A stretch of DNA of 19,474 nt from a virus (lineage: Duplodnaviria > Heunggongvirae > Uroviricota > Caudoviricetes). The notes under the pieces are model-generated. The model was not told where the DNA came from. It worked only from the letters and a program-made list of their open reading frames with translations, and made no database searches. Below, piece by piece: positions 3,762-19,474 of this stretch. The position numbers were made by a program, and so were the translations under genes. Location: positions 1 to 19,474 of the IMG/VR virus record IMGVR_UViG_2563366999_000007; one strand, 5' to 3'. Numbering within the stretch: position 1 is the first letter of the stretch; each line of letters starts with the position of its first letter.

Positions 3762-4385
3762 CTAACGTGTGATCGCATTCAAAATGTTGTCTGCGATTGA
3801 CTCTTCCTTGTGGCATTGCACAACCAGAGCGTCATACAGCGGCTTAACAGTGCGTGACCAGGTGGGTTGGGTAAGGTTTGGGATTAGCATCGTCACAGCG
3901 CGATATGCGGCGCTTGCTGGCATTCTTGAATAACCGACGCCTTTACATCTTCCGCACTCTTTCTCAGCAACTATCCCCCACTGCTCTGTTTTGGCTATAT
4001 CAACCGCACGGCCTGTACCGTGGCAATCTCTGCATCTTGCGCCCGGCGTAGCGGCACTACGGCAATAATCCGCATAAGCGAATGTTGCGAGCACTTGCAG
4101 TACCTTTGCCTTAGTATTTCCTTCAAGCTTTGCCACGCCACGGTATTTCCCCGATACCTTGTGTGCAAATTGCATCAGATAGTTGATAGCCTTTTGTTTG
4201 TCGTTCTGGCTGAGTTCGTGCTTACCGCAGAATGCAGCCATTCCGAATCCGGCTTGTGATTGCGCCATCCCCATAGCAGCCATCACATCAGTACCGGAAA
4301 GAGAGTCAGAAGCCGTAGCCCGTGGTGAGTCGCTCATCATCGGGCTTTTTGGCGAATGAAATTTAGCTACGCTTTCGAGTCTCAT
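3762..4385 (-). CDS. Q: Late-gene antiterminator Q (lambda type)
   Basis: 207 aa, [31 protein letters not shown]..., essentially identical to lambda Q over its length. Confidence 0.97.
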
Positions 4386-5047
4386 GCGCCTTCTCCCTGT
4401 ACCTGAATCAATGTGAGGTTTCCGCAGAACACTGCGCCAGTATCGATATACATCTGGTTGGCAAATTTGAGTGGTTTCACTGCTGGCGTATGACCAAAGA
4501 TAAACGTGTCCGCGCCTTTAATTTCTTTCACGATCCCGTCTTGTGAGTTGCTGATTCGTTCGCGGTTCCAGATTACCTGCTGATGATCAACTGGCTTTCC
4601 AAATTCGTATTCGTCACAAGGATAATCGGCGTGGCAGATGACATATTTTTTACCTTTGCTCACCAGTTCGATGATTAACGGAAGTTCTTCTGCTTTATGG
4701 GCAAGAGCTTTAGCCAGAATTTCTTTGTCGTAATCGAGATTAAAGAACCAGCCACCGCCATTAAGCAGCCAGTGATTGACGTTTCCACGCTCTGATAAGC
4801 CATCAATCATCATTTGCTCATGGTTTCCACGTACAGCTCTGAACCAGGGGAATGTGATTAATTCCAGGCATTCTACGTTCTCTGTACCGCGATCAACCAA
4901 ATCGCCCACCGAGATAAGCAGGTCTTTTTTGGTGTCGAATCCTATCGTCTCCAGTTTTTTCATCAGGTTCGTGTAGCATCCGTGCAGATCGCCAACTACC
5001 CAAATATTTCGGTATTTGCTGCCATCAATTCTTTCGTAGATATTCAT
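4382..5047 (-). CDS. ninI: Ser/Thr protein phosphatase (lambda orf221 / NinI)
   Basis: 221 aa, [25 protein letters not shown]...GNHE... carries the metallophosphatase motifs (GDLHG, GDLVDRG, GNHE) and matches lambda PP. Confidence 0.95.
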
Positions 5048-8655: not shown

Positions 8656-8895
8656 ATTGGTGAGAATCGCAGCAACTTGTCGTGCCAATCGAGCCATGTC
8701 GTCGTCAACGACACCCCATTCAAGAACAGCAAGCAGCATTGAGAACTTTGGAATCCAGTCCCTCTTCCACCTGCTGATCTGCGACTTATCAACTCCCACA
8801 GCTTCCGCTGTCTTCTCAGTTCCAAGCATTGCGATTTTGTTAAGCAACGCACTCTCGATTCGTAGAGCCTCGTTGCGTTTGTTTGCACGAACCAT
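8602..8895 (-). CDS. cII: Transcriptional activator CII
   Basis: 97 aa from MVRANKRNEALRIESALLNKIAMLGTEKTAEAVGVDKSQISRWKRDWIPKFSMLL..., matches lambda CII. Confidence 0.95.
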   Translation of the reverse strand: MVRANKRNEALRIESALLNKIAMLGTEKTAEAVGVDKSQISRWKRDWIPKFSMLLAVLEWGVVDDDMARLARQVAAILTNKKRPAATERSEQIQMEF

Positions 8896-10241: not shown

Positions 10242-11412
<1,171 letters not shown>

Positions 11413-11671
11413 TGGAGCACCTGTGTTGTTCTGAGGTGAGCATATCACCTCTGTTCAGGTGGCCAAATTCAGTGTGCCACTACAGAATAACTGTTGAAAC
11501 TTGGTCAATCACTACAGACAAAAAAGCTCTTTACTCCAAAGTAATGAATATCCCAGGCATGCAACAACTTACATCAACCAAATCCTTTGTTGGTGATGTA
11601 GTCGGAACCTGCAACCAGTAATCCCCACCTCAATCTCAATAACCAAAAAACAAACTATTTTCCGTTTAAAA

Positions 11672-11752
11672 ACAATGGAGTTTGTTTTGCACCCCCCTTT
11701 TTTACAATATTTCTTGTTTACAATACACAATCTTTCTTGTAATTTTAAACCA
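11672..11752 (+). promoter_or_regulatory. OL operators and pL promoter (434-type operators, lambda-type transcript start)
   Basis: ACAA-N6-TTGT sites ACAATGGAGTTTGT (11672..11685), ACAATATTTCTTGT (11704..11717), ACAATCTTTCTTGT (11727..11740). Candidate -35 TTTACA (11717..11722), 17-bp spacer, -10 TAATTT (11740..11745), start near 11752 at ATCAGCAGGACGCACTGACC as in the lambda pL transcript. Confidence 0.75.
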
Positions 11753-11783
11753 TCAGCAGGACGCACTGACCACCATGAAGGTG

Positions 11784-11815
11784 ATGCTCTTAAAAATTAA
11801 GCCCTGAAGAAGGGC
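11784..11815 (+). promoter_or_regulatory. nutL (boxA and boxB)
   Basis: boxA-like GCTCTTAAAAATTAA followed by the boxB hairpin GCCCTGAAGAAGGGC (11801..11815), matching lambda nutL. Confidence 0.85.
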
Positions 11816-11973
11816 AGCATTCAAAGCAGAAGGCTTTGGGGTGTGTGATACGAAACGAAGCATTGGCCGGAAGTGCGATTCCGGATTAGCTGCCAATGTG
11901 CCAATCGCGGGGGGTTTTCGTTCAGGACTACAACTGCCACACACCACCAAAGCTAACTGACAGGAGAATCCAG

Positions 11974-12297
11974 ATGGATGCACAAACACGCCGCCGCGAA
12001 CGTCGCGCAGAGAAACAGGCTCAATGGAAAGCAGCAAATCCCCTGTTGGTTGGGGTAAGCGCAAAACCAGTTAACCGCCCTATTCTCTCGCTGAATCGCA
12101 AACCGAAATCACGAGTAGAAAGCGCACTAAATCCGATAGACCTTACAGTGCTGGCTGAATACCACAAACAGATTGAAAGCAACCTGCAACGTATTGAGCG
12201 CAAGAATCAGCGCACATGGTACAGCAAGCCTGGCGAACGCGGCATAACATGCAGTGGGCGCCAGAAAATTAAGGGAAAATCGATTCCTCTTACCTAG
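11974..12297 (+). CDS. N: Antitermination protein N
   Basis: 107 aa, MDAQTRRRERRAEKQAQWKAANPLLVGVSAKPVNRPILSLNRKPKSRVESALNPIDLTVLAEYHKQIESNLQRIERKNQRTWYSKPGERGITCSGRQKIKGKSIPLT, matches lambda N including the Arg-rich motif. Confidence 0.96.
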   Translation: MDAQTRRRERRAEKQAQWKAANPLLVGVSAKPVNRPILSLNRKPKSRVESALNPIDLTVLAEYHKQIESNLQRIERKNQRTWYSKPGERGITCSGRQKIKGKSIPLT

Positions 12298-12852
12298 TTA
12301 CTTAGATATTGACCTTGGCTTTATCTCAATATTATATGGATCATAGCTGGCAACTAATTCAGTCCAGTAAATATCCTCAATAGGGAATAATATATGCTTC
12401 CCGTTCCATCGGGAAAAAGTTTTGTTCAACACACCAAGCTCAATCAACTCACTAATGTATGGGAATTGTTTTGATGTAACCACATACTTCCTGCCTTCAT
12501 TAAGGGCTGCGCACAAAACCATAGATTGCTCTTCTGTAAGGTTTTGAATTACTGATCGCACTTTATCGTTTTGCATCTTAATGCGTTTTCTTAGCTTAAA
12601 TCGCTTATATCTGGCGCTGGCAATAGCTGATAATCGATGCACATTAATTGCTAGCGAAAATGCAAGAGCAAAGACGAAAACATGCCACACATGAGGAATA
12701 CCGATTCTCTCATTAACATATTCAGGCCAGTTATCTGGGCTTAAAAGCAGAAGTCCAACCCAGATAACGATCATATACATGGTTCTCTCCAGAGGTTCAT
12801 TACTGAACACTCGTCCGAGAATAACGAGTGGATCCATTTCTATACTCATCAA
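12298..12852 (-). CDS. sieB: Superinfection exclusion protein SieB (membrane protein)
   Basis: 184-aa ORF convergent with N, AT-rich, hydrophobic N-terminal half. Same position, orientation and length (555 bp) as lambda sieB. Confidence 0.75.
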   Translation of the reverse strand: MMSIEMDPLVILGRVFSNEPLERTMYMIVIWVGLLLLSPDNWPEYVNERIGIPHVWHVFVFALAFSLAINVHRLSAIASARYKRFKLRKRIKMQNDKVRSVIQNLTEEQSMVLCAALNEGRKYVVTSKQFPYISELIELGVLNKTFSRWNGKHILFPIEDIYWTELVASYDPYNIEIKPRSISK

Positions 12853-13046
12853 ACTGTAGGGGTTGTAATAGTTTATCCGATTTCTCGCTGTAGGGGTACA
12901 CGAGAACCACCGAGCCTGATGTGGTTAAAAGACAGGCACAATCTTTACTACCGCAATCCACTATTTAAGGTGATATATGGAAGAAGAATTTGAAGAGTTC
13001 GAAGAGCATCCTCAGGATGTGATGGAACAATACCAGGACTATCCGT

Positions 13047-13247
13047 ATGACTACGACTATTGATAAAAATCAATGGTGTGGACAATTCAAGCGATGCAAT
13101 GGATGCAAGCTGCAATCGGAATGCATGGTTAAGCCTGAAGAAATGTTTCCTGTAATGGAAGATGGGAAATATGTCGATAAATGGGCAATACGAACGACGG
13201 CAATGATTGCCAGAGAACTTGGTAAACAGAACAACAAAGTTGCCTGA
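13047..13247 (+). CDS. ral: Restriction alleviation protein Ral
   Basis: 66 aa, MTTTIDKNQWCGQFKRCNGCKLQSECMVKPEEMFPVMEDGKYVDKWAIRTTAMIARELGKQNNKVA, matches lambda Ral. Confidence 0.93.
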   Translation: MTTTIDKNQWCGQFKRCNGCKLQSECMVKPEEMFPVMEDGKYVDKWAIRTTAMIARELGKQNNKVA

Positions 13248-13383
13248 TAGTGGCCTTTATTTTTGGCATAAATAACAGAATAAACACTGCACTGTGTATT
13301 CATTCCAACGAGTGAATACACGGAGCAATGTCGCTCGTAACTAAACAGGAGCCGACTTGTTCTGATTATTGGAAATCTTCTTT

Positions 13384-13409
13384 GCCCTCCAGTGTGAGGG
13401 CGATTTTTT
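13384..13409 (+). terminator. Intrinsic terminator within the pL operon (tL2-like)
   Basis: GCCCTC-CAGTGT-GAGGGC hairpin followed by GATTTTTTA on the plus strand, just upstream of ea10. Confidence 0.5.
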
Positions 13410-13429
13410 ATCTATGAGGATATGAATAG

Positions 13430-13798
13430 ATGTCAAACATCAAAAAATACATCATTGATTACGACTGGAAAGCATCAATAGAAATTGAAATCGACCATGA
13501 CGTAATGACAGAGGAAAAACTTCACCAGATTAATAATTTCTGGTCAGACTCTGAATACCGACTCAATAAACACGGCTCTGTATTAAATGCTGTATTAATC
13601 ATGCTGGCGCAACATGCTCTGCTTATAGCAATTTCAAGCGACTTAAATGCATATGGTGTTGTGTGTGAGTTCGACTGGAATGATGGAAATGGTCAGGAAG
13701 GATGGCCTCCAATGGATGGTAGCGAAGGAATAAGAATTACCGATATCGATACATCAGGAATATTTGATCCAGATGATATGACTATCAAAGCCGCCTGA
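13430..13798 (+). CDS. ea10: Ea10 (lambda early protein, SSB-like)
   Basis: 122 aa, MSNIKKYIIDYDWKASIEIEIDHDVMTEEKLHQINNFWSDSEYRLNKHG..., matches lambda Ea10. Confidence 0.9.
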   Translation: MSNIKKYIIDYDWKASIEIEIDHDVMTEEKLHQINNFWSDSEYRLNKHGSVLNAVLIMLAQHALLIAISSDLNAYGVVCEFDWNDGNGQEGWPPMDGSEGIRITDIDTSGIFDPDDMTIKAA

Positions 13799-13870
13799 AC
13801 GCGGCGTTACCGCATACCAATTACGCTTCACTCGAGGCGTTTTTCGTTATGTATAAATAAGGAGCACACC

Positions 13871-14035
13871 ATGCAATATGCCATTGCAGGGTGGCCTGTT
13901 GCTGGCTGCCCTTCCGAATCTTTACTTGAACGAATTACCCGTAAATTACGTGACGGATGGAAACGCCTTATCGACATACTTAATCAGCCAGGAGTCCCGA
14001 AAAATGGATCAAACAATTATGGCTATCCAGACTAA
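13871..14035 (+). CDS. cIII: CIII (FtsH/HflB protease inhibitor)
   Basis: Hand-translated 54 aa: [54 protein letters not shown], matches lambda CIII. Below the ORF-track cutoff. Confidence 0.9.
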   Translation: MQYAIAGWPVAGCPSESLLERITRKLRDGWKRLIDILNQPGVPKNGSNNYGYPD

Positions 14036-14168
14036 ATTCACTATCGCCACTTTTATTGGCGATGAAAAGATGTTTCGTGAGGCCGTCGACGCTTATAAAA
14101 AATGGATATTAATACAGAAACTGAGATCAAGCAAAAGCATTCACTACCCCCCTTTCCTGTTTTCCTAA
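14022..14168 (+). CDS. kil: Kil (host cell-division inhibitor)
   Basis: [49 protein letters not shown], overlapping the cIII 3' end as in lambda. An alternative in-frame start at 14004 (MDQTIM...) exists. Confidence 0.8.
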
Positions 14169-14222
14169 TCAGCCTGGCATTTCGCGGGCGATATTTTCAC
14201 AGCCATTTTCAGGAGTTCAGCC

Positions 14223-14519
14223 ATGAACGCTTATTACATTCAGGATCGTCTTGAGGCTCAGAGCTGGGCGCGTCACTACCAGCAGATCGCCCGTGAAGAG
14301 AAAGAGGCAGAACTGGCAGACGACATGGAAAAAGGCCTGCCCCAGCACCTGTTTGAATCGCTATGCATCGATCATTTGCAACGCCACGGGGCCAGCAAAA
14401 AAGCCATTACCCGTGCGTTTGATGACGATGTTGAGTTTCAGGAGCGCATGGCAGAACACATCCGGTACATGGTTGAAACCATTGCTCACCACCAGTTTGA
14501 TATTGATTCAGAGGTATAA
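14223..14519 (+). CDS. gam: Gam (RecBCD inhibitor), short 98-aa form
   Basis: [98 protein letters not shown], matches lambda Gam. Confidence 0.95.
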
Positions 14520-14524
14520 AACGG

Positions 14525-15310
14525 ATGAGTACAGCACTCGCAACGCTGGCAGGGAAGCTGGCTGAACGTGTCGGCATGGATTCTGTCGACCCACAGGAAC
14601 TGATCACCACTCTTCGCCAGACGGCATTTAAAGGTGATGCCAGCGATGCGCAGTTCATCGCATTGTTGATCGTCGCCAACCAGTACGGCCTTAATCCGTG
14701 GACGAAAGAAATTTACGCCTTCCCTGATAAGCAGAACGGCATTGTTCCGGTGGTGGGCGTTGATGGCTGGTCCCGCATCATCAATGAAAACCAGCAGTTT
14801 GATGGCATGGACTTTGAGCAGGACAATGAATCCTGTACATGCCGGATTTACCGCAAGGACCGTAATCATCCGATCTGCGTTACCGAGTGGATGGATGAAT
14901 GCCGCCGCGAACCATTCAAAACCCGCGAAGGCAGAGAAATCACGGGCCCGTGGCAGTCGCATCCCAAACGGATGTTACGGCATAAAGCCATGATTCAGTG
15001 TGCCCGTCTCGCCTTCGGATTTGCTGGTATCTATGACAAGGATGAAGCCGAGCGCATTGTCGAAAATACTGCATACACTGCAGAACGTCAGCCAGAACGC
15101 GACATCACTCCGGTTAACGATGAAACCATGCAGGAGATTAACACTCTGCTGATCGCCCTGGATAAAACATGGGATGACGACTTATTGCCGCTCTGTTCCC
15201 AGATATTTCGCCGCGACATTCGCGCATCGTCAGAACTGACACAGGCCGAAGCAGTGAAAGCTCTTGGATTCCTGAAACAGAAAGCCGCAGAGCAGAAGGT
15301 GGCAGCATGA
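14525..15310 (+). CDS. bet: Bet (Red-beta single-strand annealing protein)
   Basis: 261 aa, [68 protein letters not shown]..., matches lambda Bet. Confidence 0.97.
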
Positions 15311-15987
15311 CACCGGACATTATCCTGCAGCGTACCGGGATCGACGTGAGAGCTGTCGAACAGGGGGATGATGCGTGGCACAAATTACGGCTCGGCGTCA
15401 TCACAGCTTCAGAAGTTCACAACGTGATAGCAAAGCCCCGCTCAGGAGAGAAGTGGCCTGACATGAAAATGTCCTACTTCCACACCCTGCTGGCTGAGGT
15501 TTGCACCGGTGTGGCTCCGGAAGTTAATGCTAAGGCGCTGGCCTGGGGAAAACAGTACGAGAACGACGCCAGAACCCTGTTTGAATTCACTTCCGGCGTG
15601 AATGTTATTGAATCCCCGATCATCTATCGCGACGAAAGTATGCGCACCGCCTGCTCTCCCGATGGTTTATGCAGTGATGGCAATGGCCTTGAGCTGAAAT
15701 GCCCGTTTACCTCCCGGGATTTCATTAAGTTCCGGCTCGGTGGTTTCGAGGCCATAAAGTCGGCTTACATGGCCCAGGTGCAGTACAGCATGTGGGTGAC
15801 GCGAAAAGATGCCGGGTACTTTGCCAACTATGACCCGCGTATGAAGCGTGAAGGCCTGCATTATGTCGTGATTGAGCGGGATGAAAAGTACATGGCGAGT
15901 TTTGACGAGATAGTGCCGGAGTTCATCGAAAAAATGGACGAGGCACTGGCTGAAATTGGTTTTGTATTTGGGGAGCAATGGCGATGA
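15307..15987 (+). CDS. exo: Exo (Red-alpha 5'-3' exonuclease)
   Basis: 226 aa, [47 protein letters not shown]..., matches lambda Exo. Confidence 0.97.
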
Positions 15988-16166
15988 AGCATCCTCACGA
16001 TAATATCCGGGTAGGTGCGATCACTTTCGTCTACTCCGTTACAAAGCGAGGCTGGGTATTTCCCGACCTTTCTGTTATCCAAAATCCACTGAAAGCCCAG
16101 CGGCTGGCTGAGGAGATAAATAATAAACGAGGGGCTGTATGCACAAAGCATCTCCTGTTGAGTTAA
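15984..16166 (+). CDS. Lambda orf60a-like protein
   Basis: [60 protein letters not shown]. Start overlaps the exo stop. Confidence 0.85.
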
Positions 16167-16410: not shown

Positions 16411-16622
16411 CACCTCAGCAAGAAAACGCCCTTCGCAGTATTGCCCGTCAGGCTAATTCTGAAATCAAAAAAGCCAGACAGCAGTTTCCGGATAAAAACG
16501 TCGATGACATTTGCCGTAGCGTACTGAAGAAGCACCGCGAAACGGTAACGCTGATGGGATTCACACCGACTCATTTAAGCCTGGCGATCGGCATGTTAAA
16601 CGGCGTCTTTAAGGAACGGTGA
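16407..16622 (+). CDS. Lambda orf61-like protein
   Basis: MTPQQENALRSIARQANSEIKKARQQFPDKNVDDICRSVLKKHRETVTLMGFTPTHLSLAIGMLNGVFKER, matches lambda orf61. Confidence 0.8.
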   Translation: MTPQQENALRSIARQANSEIKKARQQFPDKNVDDICRSVLKKHRETVTLMGFTPTHLSLAIGMLNGVFKER

Positions 16623-16720
16623 GCATGAAAAACAAAATCATCAGGGAGCTACAGGCTCCTTTTTTATTATTCGCATTCACCCTCAAGCGTATTAACCAAC
16701 AATTCAGGGATTAATGAAAG

Positions 16721-16942
16721 ATGGCAGACATCATTGATTCAGCATCAGAAATTGAAGAATTACAGCGCAACACAGCAATAAAAATGCGCCGCCTGAACCA
16801 CCAGGCTATATCTGCCACTCATTGTTGTGAGTGTGGCGATCCGATAGATGAACGAAGACGCTTGGCCGTTCAGGGTTGTCGGACTTGTGCAAGTTGCCAG
16901 GAGGATCTGGAACTTATCAGTAAACAGAGAGGTTCGAAGTGA
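16721..16942 (+). CDS. DksA/TraR-family C4 zinc-finger protein (lambda orf73-like)
   Basis: 73 aa, MADIIDSASEIEELQRNTAIKMRRLNHQAISATHCCECGDPIDERRRLAVQGCRTCASCQEDLELISKQ. The CxxC-17-CxxC motif and N-terminal helix are typical of TraR-like RNA-polymerase-binding proteins. Confidence 0.8.
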   Translation: MADIIDSASEIEELQRNTAIKMRRLNHQAISATHCCECGDPIDERRRLAVQGCRTCASCQEDLELISKQRGSK

Positions 16943-17094
16943 GCGAAATTAACTAGAAGCCAAAGATAAAATCATCGCTGAGCAGGAGAAAATCGCTAAC
17001 GGAGAAAAGACAGTAAGTCAGTATATGAAAACCGCATGATATCATCAGATAAAAATCGATCGTAAAGCGAAATATTAATACCAGAATAAACGAG

Positions 17095-17118
17095 TCGAGG
17101 TAAATTATATTACCTCGA
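17095..17118 (-). terminator. Hairpin downstream of the reverse-oriented membrane-protein gene (possible terminator)
   Basis: Perfect 9-bp inverted repeat TCGAGGTAA-ATTATA-TTACCTCGA, followed on the minus strand by CTCGTTTATT. AT-rich stem, so only moderate terminator character. Confidence 0.35.
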
Positions 17119-17152
17119 TAAATTAACTAAAACTTGCCCGCTATATACTATC

Positions 17153-17755
17153 TCATTCAGTATCATCACGCGCGGTCTGTGCATATGTTACTACCGCACC
17201 TAATGTATTAATTTTCTTTTCAACATAGATAATATTATCGTACTCATAATTGCCATACGGATAGCAAATGCGAATATTCTCATGTAGATCGGGGTCATCC
17301 ACCTCAGCTCCAGAACAACTTTTTGAACTACCGGAAGTATACCGATACGGTGCAACATAAGACGATGTCTCTCCAGGCAAAAAATAAGTTAGTGTTGTAA
17401 GGGGTATAATCAGAAAAAATCCAGCAAATATGCACATCCCTGCATAAACCTTAAGGTATGCTGACAGACTCTTCCAGCCGCTTTGTTTTACTATCCCCTT
17501 CTTAACCCAAAACAGAGATAACAGAAAAGCTATTCCCATGCTAAACAGAATGTAATAGTGGGATATACTCTGATTAAGAAACGTGACCCTGTAAATATCT
17601 GCCCGCCACCAGAAGAAAAGGAAAATAAAGATCAGGCCTGAAACTGTCATGCAAATCAAATAAGGATACGAATCTTTTTTCATGTTTAGCGCCCATAAAA
17701 TTTTTCCTGCCCCGGACAAATTTACCATCCATTTTTTGCGCAGAAAATAGCTCAT
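17153..17755 (-). CDS. Hypothetical membrane protein (reverse-oriented moron in the ea22/ea8.5 position)
   Basis: 200-aa ORF, AT-rich. Three to four hydrophobic helices (LICMTVSGLIFIFLFFWW, YYILFSMGIAFLLSLFWV, VYAGMCIFAGFFLIIPLTTLTYFL) and a roughly 70-aa hydrophilic C-terminal domain with Cys/Tyr-rich motifs. Opposite orientation to the surrounding pL operon. I recognise no homolog. Confidence 0.6.
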   Translation of the reverse strand: MSYFLRKKWMVNLSGAGKILWALNMKKDSYPYLICMTVSGLIFIFLFFWWRADIYRVTFLNQSISHYYILFSMGIAFLLSLFWVKKGIVKQSGWKSLSAYLKVYAGMCIFAGFFLIIPLTTLTYFLPGETSSYVAPYRYTSGSSKSCSGAEVDDPDLHENIRICYPYGNYEYDNIIYVEKKINTLGAVVTYAQTARDDTE

Positions 17756-17996
17756 TACTTACTGCACAATAATACACAAAATTGCGTAAATTTTTTGCAT
17801 GGATTTTAGCTCTTTCAGCCGACGTTTAAGGGGTAAATAGCATTTCCTAAAAGCAACTGCACCAACCCAACAGAATGAGCTACCGCTTACGTTGAGAGCA
17901 AAAAAGTGTATAGCAGCAATGAACAGCATCCTCGCACTGACGAGGATTTCTTTTATCTGAACTCGCTACGGCGAGTTTTGTTTTATGGAGATGATA

Positions 17997-18164
17997 AATG
18001 CACTTCCGAGTCACAGGTGAATGGAATGGAGAACCATTCAACAGAGTTATCGAAGCAGAGAACATCAATGACTGCTATGACCACTGGATGATATGGGCGC
18101 AGATAGCACATGCAGACATAACCAATATTCGAATTGAAGAACTGAAAGAACACCAAGCCGCCTG
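17997..18164 (+). CDS. Small hypothetical protein upstream of xis (lambda 55-aa ORF-like)
   Basis: Hand-translated 55 aa with GGAGA ribosome-binding site: MHFRVTGEWNGEPFNRVIEAENINDCYDHWMIWAQIAHADITNIRIEELKEHQAA*. Followed by a terminator hairpin. Confidence 0.6.
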
Positions 18165-18179
18165 ATGGCGGCTTTTTCT
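18154..18179 (+). terminator. Intrinsic terminator (AAGCCGCC-TGAT-GGCGGCTT followed by a T-run)
   Basis: GC-rich 8-bp stem, 4-nt loop, then TTTTTCTT on the plus strand, overlapping the stop of the 55-aa ORF and upstream of xis. Confidence 0.6.
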
Positions 18180-18204
18180 TGCGTGTAATTGCGGAGACTT
18201 TGCG

Positions 18205-18423
18205 ATGTACTTGACACTTCAGGAGTGGAACGCACGCCAGCGGCGCCCAAGAAGCCTTGAAACAGTTCGTCGATGGGTACGCGAGTGCAGGATATTCCCT
18301 CCTCCTGTTAAGGATGGAAGAGAGTATTTGTTCCACGAATCAGCGGTAAAAATTGACTTAAATCGACCAGTAACAGGTAGCCTTTTGAAGAGGATCAAAA
18401 ATGGGAAGAAGGCGAAGTCATGA
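18205..18423 (+). CDS. xis: Excisionase Xis
   Basis: 72 aa, MYLTLQEWNARQRRPRSLETVRRWVRECRIFPPPVKDGREYLFHESAVKIDLNRPVTGSLLKRIKNGKKAKS, matches lambda Xis. Confidence 0.96.
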   Translation: MYLTLQEWNARQRRPRSLETVRRWVRECRIFPPPVKDGREYLFHESAVKIDLNRPVTGSLLKRIKNGKKAKS

Positions 18424-19474
18424 GCGCCGGGATTTACCCCCTAACCTTTATATAAGAAACAATGGATATTACTGCTACAGGGACCCAAGGACGGGTAAAG
18501 AGTTCGGATTAGGCAGAGACAGACGTATAGCAATCACTGAAGCTATACAGGCCAATATTGAGTTGCTATCCGGGAACAGGCGTGAGTCACTGATAGACAG
18601 AATTAAAGGCGCTGACGCAATCACTCTTCATGCGTGGCTTGACCGATATGAAACAATCCTCAGCGAGAGGGGTATCAGGCCGAAAACTCTACTCGACTAC
18701 GCCAGCAAAATCAGGGCAATCCGAAGAAAATTGCCGGACAAACCGCTCGCTGACATATCAACGAAAGAGGTGGCAGCAATGCTAAACACCTACGTAGCAG
18801 AAGGTAAAGCGGCTTCCGCAAAATTAATCAGGTCAACCCTTGTTGACGTTTTTCGTGAGGCAATAGCCGAGGGGCATGTGGCTACGAATCCGGTAACAGC
18901 AACCCGCACAGCAAAGTCAGAAGTAAGGCGCTCAAGGCTGACAGCTAATGAGTATGTCGCGATTCACCATGCAGCCGAACCTCTCCCAATCTGGCTGAGG
19001 CTTGCGATGGATTTGGCCGTCGTTACAGGTCAGAGAGTCGGCGATTTGTGCAAAATGAAATGGTCAGACATAAACGACAACCATCTTCACATTGAACAGG
19101 GTAAAACAGGGGCTAAGCTCGCCATTCCGCTGACGCTAACGATTGACGCGCTCAATATCTCATTGGCCGATACACTACAGAAATGCAGGGAGGTCAGCGG
19201 CAGTGAAACAATAATTGCATCAACGCATCACGAACCGCTTTCCCCGAAAACAGTATCTAAGTATTTTACAAAGGCGAGAAATGCATCTGGACTCTCATTT
19301 GATGGAGACCCGCCAACATTCCATGAACTGCGTAGCCTGTCGGCGAGGCTATACCGGAATCAGATTGGCGATAAGTTTGCTCAACGTCTTCTCGGGCATA
19401 AATCAGATTCAATGGCGGCGCGGTATAGGGACAGCCGAGGGAGAGAATGGGACAAAATTGAAATCAACAAATGA
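18401..19474 (+). CDS. int: Tyrosine integrase Int (lambda family)
   Basis: 357 aa, MGRRRSHERRDLPPNLYIRNNGYYCYRDPRTGKEFGLGRDRRIAITEAIQAN..., catalytic-domain motifs (...HELRSLSARLY...LLGHKSDSMAARYRD...). Overlaps the xis 3' end. Stop at the window edge. Confidence 0.96.
   Translation: MGRRRSHERRDLPPNLYIRNNGYYCYRDPRTGKEFGLGRDRRIAITEAIQANIELLSGNRRESLIDRIKGADAITLHAWLDRYETILSERGIRPKTLLDYASKIRAIRRKLPDKPLADISTKEVAAMLNTYVAEGKAASAKLIRSTLVDVFREAIAEGHVATNPVTATRTAKSEVRRSRLTANEYVAIHHAAEPLPIWLRLAMDLAVVTGQRVGDLCKMKWSDINDNHLHIEQGKTGAKLAIPLTLTIDALNISLADTLQKCREVSGSETIIASTHHEPLSPKTVSKYFTKARNASGLSFDGDPPTFHELRSLSARLYRNQIGDKFAQRLLGHKSDSMAARYRDSRGREWDKIEINK

What the first reader, a model, noticed from the sequence alone, without database searches (positions are those of the whole stretch)
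16943..17996. Reverse-oriented AT-rich membrane protein replaces ea22/ea8.5 between orf73 and xis
Genes on both sides (exo, orf60a, orf63, orf61, orf73 on one side; the 55-aa ORF, xis, int on the other) are collinear with lambda and read from pL on the + strand. Where lambda has ea22 and ea8.5, this window has about 1 kb of low-GC DNA carrying a 200-aa gene on the opposite strand (17153..17755) with three to four TM helices and a hydrophilic Cys/Tyr-containing C-terminal domain, followed by a perfect 9-bp-stem hairpin (17095..17118). Antisense orientation inside an early operon implies its own promoter and expression independent of the lytic cascade, as in known prophage exclusion and defence cargo. 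I cannot assign it to any family.
Basis: partly seen in the sequence, partly recalled or inferred. Interest (0 to 1): 0.7.

Follow-up and report, generated by a model that had tools for sequence, protein, structure and literature searches.

The report
Orphan membrane-protein cassette in lambdoid prophage
A self-contained, backwards-facing gene cassette, apparently imported from a P2-type phage's accessory-gene hotspot, encodes an uncharacterised inner-membrane protein with a small outward-facing domain; it is a plausible but unproven candidate for blocking infection by other phages.

Summary
Lambda collinearity breaks at 16954 and resumes at 17928. The 973-bp low-GC substitution carries a minus-strand ORF (17153..17755) and a 9-bp-stem hairpin (17095-17118). 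The region is nearly identical to phage 434, and 825 of 5426 complete E. coli genomes hold most of 16900-18200.

Corrections and additions:
- All homologues start at Met25, so the likely protein is 176 aa (17153..17683).
- It has three TM helices and a confidently modelled five-strand beta domain with two family-invariant cysteines, predicted to be periplasmic.
- dN/dS is about 0.1. A -35-like element and an extended -10 are conserved upstream.
- No Pfam, NCBIfam, PADLOC or informative fold match was found. The only hit is PHROG 1416, of unknown function.
- Phage-borne homologues in E. coli, Salmonella and Klebsiella lie between portal gpQ and gpA of P2-like prophages, where P2 carries old/tin.
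- The substitution retains P2-backbone sequence and a P2-type ea22 remnant, indicating P2-to-lambdoid transfer.
- More distant homologues are chromosomal, outside prophages.

My best reading (about 0.4) is a lysogen-expressed envelope protein that excludes superinfecting phages. This is not shown, and a non-defence envelope role is nearly as likely. Interest is moderate.

The parts
16940..16954 (+). First five codons of ea22 (VSEIN). These are the last bases collinear with lambda.
   Evidence: BLAST against lambda: 98% identity to 16954, then a break. Lambda Ea22 begins VSEINSQ.
16953..17045 (+). Remnant of an ead/Ea22-like gene of the P2-prophage type, frame-broken (…LEAKDKIIAEQEKIANGEKTVSQYMKTA*).
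   Evidence: Window 16953-16996 is 77% identical to L026 6014-6057 and L027 4560-4603, inside the ea22-like gene of P2-like prophages. tblastn aligns LEAKDKIIAEQEKIA with LETKDNRIAELEKIA.
17046..17152 (-). 3' untranslated part of the cassette, containing the terminator-like hairpin 17095-17118.
   Evidence: DNA similarity to the E. coli P2-like cassette (L026) runs to 17046. Hairpin. The stem is largely preserved in L026 with one changed base pair (my reading of the alignment).
17153..17683 (-). Coding sequence of the 176-aa protein (stop included): three TM helices plus a C-terminal five-strand beta domain with two invariant Cys.
17684..17755 (-). 5' extension of the open frame (24 codons). 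It is probably not translated, because it overlaps the predicted promoter and leader.
   Evidence: No homologue has the extension. L026 has an in-frame TAA here. The conserved promoter elements lie inside it.
17719..17747 (-). Predicted promoter: -35-like TTTTCT (17747-17742), a 17-nt spacer, and extended -10 TGgTAAATT (17727-17719). The palindrome ATTTTCTGCGCAAAAAAT (17748-17731) overlaps it. The predicted transcription start is near 17712.
   Evidence: TTTT, TG, the -12 T and the -7 T are invariant in seven cassettes. The upstream 147 nt is 75% identical to L026, against about 40% identity at synonymous sites. Palindrome. Function is inferred, not shown.
17762..17820 (-). P2-like backbone sequence carrying three 10-bp-phased TTGTGCA-type repeats, degenerate in this window.
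   Evidence: It matches L027 4165-4223, a P2-like hotspot that lacks the membrane gene. Comparable ATGCA repeats lie upstream of the old-tin transcript start in P2.
17816..17877 (-). P2-like backbone sequence from the portal side of the cos region. The 78 bp between this block and the previous one, which includes the cos-like core, is missing.
   Evidence: 74.6% identity to L027 4024-4086. That the missing segment is cos-like is my reading of the P2 end sequence.
17928..17954 (+). tL4 terminator of the pL operon. Lambda collinearity resumes here.
   Evidence: Annotated t-L4 in M60848. Terminator scan. Lambda identity resumes at 17928.

Best explanation
The 973-bp substitution is a fragment of a P2-type phage's cos-proximal accessory hotspot that recombined into the exo-xis region of a 434-type lambdoid phage. 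Its core (about 17046-17761) is an autonomous 'moron' cassette: its own weak -35 and extended -10 promoter, one gene, and its own hairpin terminator. It is transcribed against the pL operon, so it should be expressed when pL is repressed, that is, in the lysogen. The product is a 176-aa inner-membrane protein. Its N-terminus is cytoplasmic, it has three TM helices, and its roughly 75-residue C-terminal beta-barrel faces the periplasm and is stapled by a disulfide between the two invariant cysteines. I propose that it acts at the envelope to exclude superinfecting phages, most likely by interfering with passage of the incoming genome across the periplasm and inner membrane. This is a superinfection-exclusion mechanism, as opposed to a suicide mechanism. 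What is shown: the gene is real and under purifying selection, its architecture, the cassette boundaries, the P2 origin, and the hotspot location of its homologues. What is inferred: the promoter, the topology and disulfide, expression in the lysogen, and the anti-phage function.
For: - Real gene: dN/dS is 0.08-0.15. The family has 61 representatives of constant architecture.
- Structure: AF2 gives pLDDT 81 for the full length and 90 for the C-domain, with helices 29-55, 62-85 and 94-125 and five strands.
- Topology: K+R is concentrated in the N-terminus and loop 2. There are exactly two Cys in the C-domain of every member, and they are the only invariant residues family-wide. A loop-1 strand (58-60) is also modelled.
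- Autonomy: the upstream region is conserved well above synonymous sites, with invariant promoter elements. A hairpin follows the stop codon.
- Foreign origin: GC is 0.39 against 0.47.
- Context: homologues at 55-78% identity in E. coli, Salmonella and Klebsiella lie between the portal gene and gpA of P2-like prophages. They have the position and orientation of P2 old-tin, which are lysogenic-conversion exclusion genes transcribed from near cos. That interval is described as an anti-phage hotspot (PMC9122126). The P2 allele WP_000711113 is listed there as 'hypothetical'.
- P2 origin of the window's insert.
- Retention: the gene is intact in the degraded O157 Sakai prophage Sp3, where int and bet are pseudogenes, and most of the region is present in 825 of 5426 complete E. 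coli genomes.
- Single-gene unit: no constant partner gene appears across contexts.
Against: - No experimental datum on expression or phenotype was found.
- No PADLOC, Pfam or NCBIfam hit.
- No homology to P22 SieA.
- No informative fold match.
- Homologues in Klebsiella, Enterobacter and Cedecea are chromosomal, with non-phage neighbours. In Klebsiella and Enterobacter their GC is close to that of the flanks, which suggests an ordinary cellular role.
- Other lambdoid phages carry forward-strand ea22-type genes at this slot.
- The promoter scores below the scan threshold.
Confidence: 0.4

Rival explanations
1. It is a lysogenic-conversion or host-fitness envelope protein unrelated to phage defence. 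Examples would be an envelope-stress, transport-accessory, resistance or colonisation factor, in the manner of lambda Bor or Lom. On this view a cellular membrane protein was captured by temperate phages.
For: Distant homologues are single chromosomal genes with non-phage neighbours; in Klebsiella and Enterobacter their GC is close to that of the flanks, and they lie at conserved positions next to LysR-type regulators. There is no similarity to any defence model. The P2 hotspot also holds non-defence cargo. The gene is common in pathogenic lineages such as O157, O55, O145 and Shigella sonnei.
Against: The phage-borne clade sits at the position and orientation of old/tin. There is no signal peptide, lipobox or known virulence domain. 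The chromosomal members could themselves be defence genes.
Confidence: 0.3
2. It is an abortive-infection membrane effector. The protein senses an infection cue and permeabilises or depolarises the inner membrane, killing the cell before the phage completes its cycle.
For: It is a small multi-TM protein in a defence hotspot. TM proteins in known systems are often suicide effectors (PMC9122126). There is a faint BFVD resemblance to a '2TM beta-strand-rich effector' (E 0.4).
Against: It has no partner sensor in any context. Its conserved part is a periplasmic-type domain with a putative disulfide, not a cytoplasmic sensor. The fold match is not significant. It is carried constitutively in 15% of complete E. 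coli genomes with no sign of an antitoxin.
Confidence: 0.1
3. It is a phage-development gene. Like ea22 and ea8.5, which it replaces, it would tune the lysis-lysogeny decision or prophage induction, for example by acting on membrane FtsH, holin or cell division.
For: It sits in the exo-xis region, whose genes modulate lysogenisation and induction (PMC3824215 and PMC7093339, listed). It is physically linked to ea22-like remnants in both phage types.
Against: Its orientation is antisense to pL, and its autonomous promoter and terminator do not fit an early-operon function. It occurs in P2-like phages with a different regulatory logic, and on chromosomes without any phage. It is intact in a prophage that has lost int, bet and its immunity region.
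Confidence: 0.1
4. It is a decaying hitch-hiker with no current function in this prophage.
For: The adjacent P2-derived backbone repeats are degenerate in the window. Truncated copies exist (112-aa and 81-aa cluster members).
Against: There is strong purifying selection. Near-identical intact copies are abundant. Promoter elements are conserved.
Confidence: 0.03

Closest known systems
P22 SieA (superinfection exclusion protein A)
   Same: Both are small (164 vs 176 aa) multi-TM inner-membrane proteins encoded by a temperate phage. Both are single genes oriented against the neighbouring operon. SieA has an annotated promoter of its own; the promoter here is only predicted. TM-like segments in SieA.
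   Different: There is no sequence or profile similarity (hhalign probability 0.14). SieA has no cysteines and no sizeable extramembrane beta domain. The function of the present protein is untested.
P2 old and tin (lysogenic-conversion exclusion genes at the cos-proximal gpQ-gpA hotspot)
   Same: Homologues of the window's gene occupy the same interval in the same orientation, reading away from cos toward gpA, in P2-like prophages of E. coli, Salmonella and Klebsiella. The window retains flanking P2-backbone DNA.
   Different: Old is annotated as a cytoplasmic AAA family ATPase and exonuclease, and Tin as a protein that blocks T-even phage growth. Neither is annotated as a membrane protein and there is no homology. 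The shared feature is location, not mechanism.
HK97 gp15 and other lambdoid 'morons' (Bor, Lom)
   Same: It is an autonomous transcription unit (gene plus terminator, deviant GC) inserted between genes that are adjacent in relatives. HK97 gp15 is annotated as a moron product with its own terminator. From my own knowledge, gp15 is a membrane protein that blocks HK97 DNA entry.
   Different: gp15 is 62 aa with a single TM and lies in the tail-gene cluster on the forward strand. There is no homology.
Short NfeD-like proteins (e.g. E. coli YbbJ)
   Different: hhalign probability is 1.1 and there is no Pfam NfeD hit. No SPFH/stomatin partner gene is present in any context. The invariant Cys pair and the charge distribution argue for a periplasmic domain.
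PHROG 1416
   Same: Residues 113-200 match the 90-aa profile end to end (E 2e-50).
   Different: The PHROG covers only TM3 plus the C-domain and has no assigned function, so it adds no mechanistic information.

Membership tests
Moron (autonomous accessory transcription unit in a temperate phage) | Inserted between genes that are adjacent or differently filled in close relatives | tested here: met
   Lambda identity breaks at 16954 and resumes at 17928. Lambda has ea22 and ea8.5 there. Other lambdoids have other fillings.
Moron (autonomous accessory transcription unit in a temperate phage) | Base composition different from the surrounding genome | tested here: met
   Cassette GC is 0.373 against 0.471 for the rest of the window. 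The P2-borne alleles are 0.39-0.43 against 0.53-0.55 in E. coli and Salmonella.
Moron (autonomous accessory transcription unit in a temperate phage) | Own terminator | tested here: met
   9-bp-stem hairpin 17095-17118 with a T-rich tail on the gene's strand. It lies within the block conserved with L026.
Moron (autonomous accessory transcription unit in a temperate phage) | Own promoter, active in the prophage | tested here: inconclusive
   A -35-like element and an extended -10 are conserved with correct 17-nt spacing. The match is below the consensus-scan threshold, and no transcript data were found.
P2 gpQ-gpA (old/tin) hotspot cargo | Located between the portal gene/cos and the replication gene gpA of a P2-like prophage | tested here: met
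   True for homologues P0039, P0044, P0048 and P0055. The window's own copy is in a lambdoid phage but carries P2-backbone flanks. The hotspot is defined in PMC9122126.
Known anti-phage defence systems (PADLOC-DB v2) | Significant match to a model of a known or candidate defence protein | tested here: not met
   No family at E up to 1.
P22 SieA-like superinfection exclusion proteins | Sequence or profile homology to SieA | tested here: not met
   hhalign probability 0.14. The PHROG hit is only to an unknown-function family.
P22 SieA-like superinfection exclusion proteins | Blocks DNA entry of superinfecting phage without killing the cell | not testable with these tools
   This requires phage challenge and DNA-entry assays.
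NfeD-like (TM + OB-fold) proteins | Homology to the NfeD C-terminal domain and an adjacent SPFH-family partner gene | tested here: not met
   hhalign against YbbJ gives probability 1.1. No Pfam hit. No SPFH neighbour in any locus.
Lambda CII-activated promoter (as annotated in the 434 genome record) | TTGC-N6-TTGC flanking the -35 region | tested here: not met
   The site is TTGT-N6-TTGT. The relaxed pattern occurs 6 times against 5.0 expected. The three TTGC-N6-TTGC sites in the window, which I read as the genuine CII sites, are at 8873 (matching lambda pRE as I recall it), 18179 (placed as pI) and 4085 (placed as paQ). The motif is part of a P2-backbone repeat that is also present without the gene.

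The most novel reading that the evidence does not exclude
The protein founds a new single-gene, envelope-level anti-phage family. Its inner-membrane anchor presents a disulfide-stapled periplasmic beta-barrel that intercepts the incoming phage's DNA-delivery machinery, or masks the inner-membrane entry factor, and so blocks genome entry. The same cassette has been shuttled from the P2 old/tin hotspot into the lambda exo-xis region using an ea22-like gene as a homology arm. That would reveal a recombination route by which two unrelated temperate-phage families share accessory cargo.
Probability: 0.3. Interest if true: 0.6.

Novelty: new variant of a known kind. Interest (0 to 1): 0.45.

Why it matters
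The gene has been in the partial sequence of the classic phage 434 (GenBank record M60848), and about 15% of complete E. coli genomes carry most of the region, including O157:H7, O55:H7, O145 and Shigella sonnei. Yet it has no family name, no assigned function, and no paper I could find. If it is an exclusion factor, it would add a structurally new single-gene system acting at the periplasm or inner membrane. It could also affect phage typing, phage therapy and Stx-phage acquisition in these lineages. Independently of function, the locus is a clean, sequence-level example of cargo moving from a P2-type hotspot into a lambdoid phage. It carries footprints (a cos-flank fragment and an ea22-like arm) that show the direction of transfer and a plausible mechanism. 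The 2026 NAR study on P2/P4 hotspots left that question open (PMC13586616).

Tried and rejected
- Curated libraries: Pfam, NCBIfam and PADLOC scans gave nothing. The weak DUF6057 hit (E 0.25) was dismissed as TM noise.
- Fold searches:
  - Foldseek against BFVD gave nothing at E up to 0.001.
  - The afdb50 library was not available.
- A profile search of PDB sequences gave nothing meaningful.
- hhalign against P22 SieA and E. coli YbbJ (NfeD-like) was negative.
- I first read the three 10-bp-phased TTGTGCA repeats as a regulator site of the cassette, considering CII, OmpR-type regulators and DnaA boxes. I rejected this. The repeats belong to the P2-like backbone and occur in a hotspot that lacks the gene. 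The CII-type pattern is at chance frequency.
- The 56-aa ORF 17759..17929, annotated 'putative membrane protein' in the 434 record, was rejected as part of the unit. It has no family hit, and cassette similarity to the P2 copies stops at 17820.
- The 24-codon N-terminal extension of the ORF was rejected.
- An Rfam scan of 16500-18500 found nothing.
Full report
**1. The observation**

- The minus-strand ORF 17153..17755 (200 aa) is present.
- GC falls to 0.36-0.40 between about 16900 and 17950, against 0.45-0.55 on either side.
- A perfect 9-bp-stem, 6-nt-loop hairpin lies at 17095-17118. It is followed on the gene's strand by CUCGUUUAUU.
- The flanking genes are those of the lambda/434 pL operon: gam, bet, exo, orf60a, orf63, a 71-aa ORF and the TraR-like orf73 on one side, and ORF55, xis and int on the other.
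- BLAST against lambda fixes the substitution. Identity is 98% to 16954, which is five codons into ea22 (VSEIN). It resumes at 95% from 17928, at the terminator annotated t-L4 in the partial 434 record M60848.
- So 973 bp (16955-17927) replace lambda's ea22 and ea8.5.

**2. Identity of the region**

- The segment 16900-18200 is 99.6-99.9% identical to phages 434 and 2B8, and 98.4% identical to mEp332.
- At least 80% of it is present in 825 of 5426 complete E. coli genomes. Examples are O55:H7, O145:H28 and O157:H7, some at the lambda attachment site next to ybhC.
- RefSeq names the product WP_000120060.1, 'hypothetical protein'. The 434 genome record calls it 'putative membrane protein'.
- In O157:H7 Sakai it is ECs_0804 in the defective prophage Sp3. 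There int and bet are pseudogenes, but this gene is intact.
- By tblastn, only five phage records (434 twice, 2B8 twice, mEp332) carry it.

**3. It is a real gene, and shorter than the ORF**

- A protein search found 74 relatives, down to 42% identity, in Escherichia, Shigella, Salmonella, Enterobacter, Cedecea and Klebsiella.
- A profile search of 1.84 billion cluster representatives found only 61 hits. The family is small and, in the organisms named, enterobacterial.
- Every full-length homologue begins at the residue aligned with Met25 (MKK…).
- The closest foreign cassette (L026) has an in-frame TAA five codons upstream of that Met (read).
- The conserved promoter elements lie downstream of the Met1 ATG.
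- I therefore take the product to be 176 aa, encoded by 17153..17683.
- Nei-Gojobori dN/dS is 0.10 against the E. coli P2-type allele, 0.08 against one Salmonella allele and 0.14 against another. Synonymous differences are 0.60-0.72, near saturation.

**4. The protein**

- AlphaFold2 with the family alignment gives mean pLDDT 81.
  - Helices are at 29-55, 62-85 and 94-125 in 200-aa numbering.
  - There is a short strand at 58-60 and a C-terminal five-strand domain.
- The C-domain modelled alone reaches pLDDT 90.
- Hydropathy shows three TM segments, not four.
- Across 24 diverse members, the only invariant residues are two cysteines: C147 and C164 in 200-aa numbering, C123 and C140 in 176-aa numbering. 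W50, G149 and G186 (200-aa numbering) are nearly invariant.
- Every member has exactly two Cys in the C-domain.
- Mean K+R per member is 1.8 in the 7-residue N-terminus, about 5 in and around loop 2, and 1.9 in loop 1.
- By the positive-inside rule (established knowledge), this gives N-in and C-out.
- The two cysteines flank the 149-154/159-164 hairpin in the secondary-structure map. A periplasmic disulfide is therefore the economical reading. This is an inference, because I could not measure distances in the model.

**5. No family assignment**

- Pfam, NCBIfam and PADLOC give nothing.
- PHROG 1416 (90 aa, unknown function) matches residues 113-200.
- BFVD Foldseek has no hit at E up to 0.001. 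PDB sequence profiles give nothing.
- hhalign against P22 SieA gives probability 0.14.
- hhalign against the NfeD-like YbbJ gives probability 1.1. I tested YbbJ because of its similar 'TM helices plus small barrel' layout.

**6. Where the homologues live**

*Phage-borne alleles.* All lie in P2-like prophages, between the portal gene and the replication gene gpA, reading away from the portal toward gpA:

| Organism | Protein | Identity to the window's protein |
|---|---|---|
| E. coli | P0039 (WP_000711113) | 78% |
| Salmonella | P0044 | 70% |
| Salmonella | P0048 | 58% |
| Klebsiella michiganensis | P0055 | 55% |

- In P2 itself, this interval holds old and tin. The record annotates them as lysogenic-conversion genes that block lambda and T-even phages, transcribed from starts about 170 nt from cosR.
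- Rousset et al. describe the interval as an anti-phage hotspot (PMC9122126).
- Their supplementary table lists WP_000711113 ten times as 'hypothetical', within StbA/Plasmid_stab_B-containing loci. The gene was therefore catalogued but not examined.
- Neighbours vary and none hit PADLOC. They include a YafO toxin, ParM/StbB, an NB-ARC/AAA_16 protein and small unknown proteins.
- No partner gene is constant, so the unit is a single gene.

*Chromosomal alleles.* The more distant homologues are different:

- Klebsiella P0068, Enterobacter P0069 and Cedecea P0054 are single chromosomal genes among metabolic and regulatory genes.
- In the places sampled for each they lie at the same position with the same neighbours, next to LysR-type regulators in Klebsiella and Enterobacter.
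- In Klebsiella and Enterobacter their GC (0.55 and 0.52) is close to that of the flanks (0.59 and 0.54). The phage-borne alleles of E. coli and Salmonella are 0.39-0.43 against flanks of 0.53-0.55.

**7. The cassette and its origin**

- DNA similarity between the window and the E. coli P2-type locus (L026) is 76% over window 17820..17046. That spans upstream region, gene and terminator.
- The 147 nt upstream of the Met25 ATG is 75% identical, whereas synonymous sites are only about 40% identical.
- Several promoter elements are invariant in seven cassettes from three genera:
  - TTTT of TTTTCT (17747-17742);
  - TG, the -12 T and the -7 T of TGGTAAATT (17727-17719).
- The spacer is 17 nt, which gives a weak -35 and an extended -10 promoter with a predicted start near 17712.
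- A palindrome, ATTTTCTGCGCAAAAAAT (17748-17731), lies across the -35 and spacer. Its meaning is unknown.

Further upstream, the window carries sequence that belongs to the P2-like backbone, not to the cassette:

- Window 17820-17762 matches L027 4165-4223. This stretch holds three 10-bp-phased TTGTGCA repeats.
- Window 17877-17816 matches L027 4024-4086.
- L027 is a P2-like hotspot with an intact ead/Ea22-like gene and no membrane gene.
- The 78 bp between the two blocks is absent from the window. In L027 it contains a cos-like core followed by a hairpin and a T-run, by comparison with the P2 ends.

On the other side of the cassette:

- Window 16953-16996 is 77% identical to the interior of the P2-type ea22-like gene. 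The peptide LEAKDKIIAEQEKIA aligns with LETKDNRIAELEKIA.
- In L026 the membrane gene likewise abuts a truncated ea22-like pseudogene, in convergent orientation.

The whole substitution therefore reads as a piece of a P2-type hotspot, in this order:

1. cos flank;
2. backbone repeats;
3. cassette;
4. ea22' remnant.

- It was placed into a lambdoid phage. One junction falls inside ea22, which both phage types possess (MSEINYQALRE and VSEINSQALRE).
- The backbone pieces occur in P2-like phages without the gene. The direction of transfer is therefore P2-type to lambdoid.
- This also disposes of the 'CII binding site' annotated in the 434 record.
  - The site is TTGT-N6-TTGT, inside the degenerate backbone repeats.
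  - The relaxed pattern occurs at chance frequency, 6 against 5.0 expected.
  - The window's three TTGC-N6-TTGC sites are at 8873, 18179 and 4085. From their positions (8873 near the cII gene, 18179 just upstream of xis, 4085 inside the antiterminator gene) and my recollection of the lambda pRE sequence, I read them as pRE, pI and paQ.

**8. Mechanism**

What the data establish:

- It is an autonomous, horizontally mobile, single-gene cassette under purifying selection.
- It encodes an inner-membrane protein whose conserved business end is a small, probably disulfide-bonded, probably periplasmic barrel.
- Its phage-borne members sit in the slot and orientation where P2 keeps its exclusion genes.
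- It is antisense to pL. Read-through from pL during lytic growth would oppose it, so expression should be highest in the repressed prophage (inference).

What I infer from this:

- A periplasm-facing domain with no partner gene fits interference with entry better than it fits a cytoplasmic sensor-effector suicide system.
- I therefore favour superinfection exclusion at the genome-entry step, with confidence about 0.4.
- The main rival, at about 0.3, is a non-defence envelope or fitness function. It is supported by the host-like chromosomal orthologues and by the presence of clearly non-defence cargo in the same P2 hotspot.
- Abortive infection (0.1), a phage-development role like that of the exo-xis genes it replaced (0.1) and functionless carriage (0.03) are less likely, for the reasons given under the rivals.

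**9. Comparison with known systems**

- It works like, but is not a member of, the SieA class of prophage inner-membrane exclusion proteins. Size, TM-rich nature, reverse orientation and own promoter agree. Homology was tested and is absent.
- It fits the 'moron' definition on three of four sequence criteria. The fourth, promoter activity, is unproven.
- It is cargo of the P2 old/tin hotspot by location.
- It is not in any defence-model library I could search.

**10. Verdict**

- The gene family is uncharacterised and widespread. Its context makes an anti-phage role plausible, but nothing here demonstrates that role.
- The added value of this analysis is the corrected gene model, the predicted topology and promoter, and the demonstration that the insert is P2-hotspot DNA.
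- I rate interest as moderate (0.45). I class it as a new variant of a known kind: a prophage moron encoding a lysogen-expressed membrane protein.

Noticed in passing
window 17762-17796; L005 5895-5921; L027 4196-4222; P2 (L038) about 4953-4985: Three direct repeats at about 10-bp phasing lie near cos on the hotspot side of P2-like phages, whatever cargo follows. [quoted passage not shown] In P2 the third repeat overlaps the -35 region upstream of the annotated old-tin transcript start. They could be terminase or cos-recognition sites, or a backbone-supplied regulatory element for hotspot cargo.
   Followed up: partly
window 17816-17820 junction (compare L027 4087-4164): A 78-bp segment of the P2-like backbone is missing from the lambdoid copy. 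It contains a cos-like core (…GCTGTTCCCCCGTCACCTG…) followed by a hairpin and a T-run. The flanks show short GGCTG/GGCCGG microhomology.
   Followed up: partly
L026 5935-6305; L027 4262-4852; supplementary file 6 of PMC9122126: ead/Ea22-like genes, known from the lambda exo-xis region, are frequent cargo of the P2 gpQ-gpA hotspot. The string 'Ead_Ea22' occurs 81 times in the Rousset table, usually with StbA/ParM and Plasmid_stab_B. They may serve as a shared homology arm for exchange between P2-like and lambdoid phages.
   Followed up: partly
window 17759-17929 (-) and 17766-17779 (-): The 434 GenBank record annotates a 56-aa 'putative membrane protein' and a CII binding site here. Neither is supported. 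The ORF has no family hit and is not conserved beyond 17820 in the related cassettes. The CII-like motif is TTGT-N6-TTGT and occurs at chance frequency.
   Followed up: yes
window 8873-8886, 18179-18192, 4085-4098 (all +): There are three perfect TTGC-N6-TTGC sites. One matches the lambda pRE site as I recall it (TTGCGTTTGTTTGC, near the cII gene). One lies just upstream of xis (the pI position). One lies inside the antiterminator gene (the paQ position).
   Followed up: partly
window 18166-18204: Phage 434 has an extra gene, ORF114, between ORF55 and xis (M60848 and OL657226). This window goes from ORF55 straight to xis, as lambda does. The prophage is therefore a 434/lambda mosaic at this point and not 434 itself.
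   Followed up: partly
window 17928-17947, 17959-17978, 18155-18174: Two tandem plus-strand terminator-like hairpins sit upstream of ORF55: tL4 and a second one followed by TTTTGTTTTAT. A GC-rich hairpin right after ORF55 scores as a terminator on both strands.
   Followed up: no
L016 (O157:H7 Sakai prophage Sp3) 11198-16002: In the degraded prophage Sp3, the integrase and bet are pseudogenes and the immunity and replication region is replaced, yet the membrane-protein gene (ECs_0804) is intact at full length.
   Followed up: partly
L008 6001-6543; L012 6001-6510; L021 6001-6522: Chromosomal family members sit at fixed positions in the places sampled. In Klebsiella and Enterobacter the position is next to a LysR-type regulator; in Enterobacter the gene starts 16 nt after the regulator, on the same strand. 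In Klebsiella and Enterobacter their GC is close to that of the flanks. This hints at a cellular role and a possible regulator.
   Followed up: no
L023 2281-5623: In the Klebsiella P2-like hotspot, the homologue lies beside a 790-aa NB-ARC/AAA_16 (NLR-like STAND) protein and a 279-aa protein. Neither matches any PADLOC v2 model. They may be an uncatalogued Avs-like system.
   Followed up: partly
P0075, P0077, P0082 (cluster of P0039): 5'-truncated forms of the P2-type allele (112 aa and 81 aa, keeping TM3 and the C-domain) are recorded on very many draft contigs, at least 1000 for P0075. PHROG 1416 has the same extent. It is unclear whether these are decayed copies, gene-calling artefacts or a functional short form.
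   Followed up: partly
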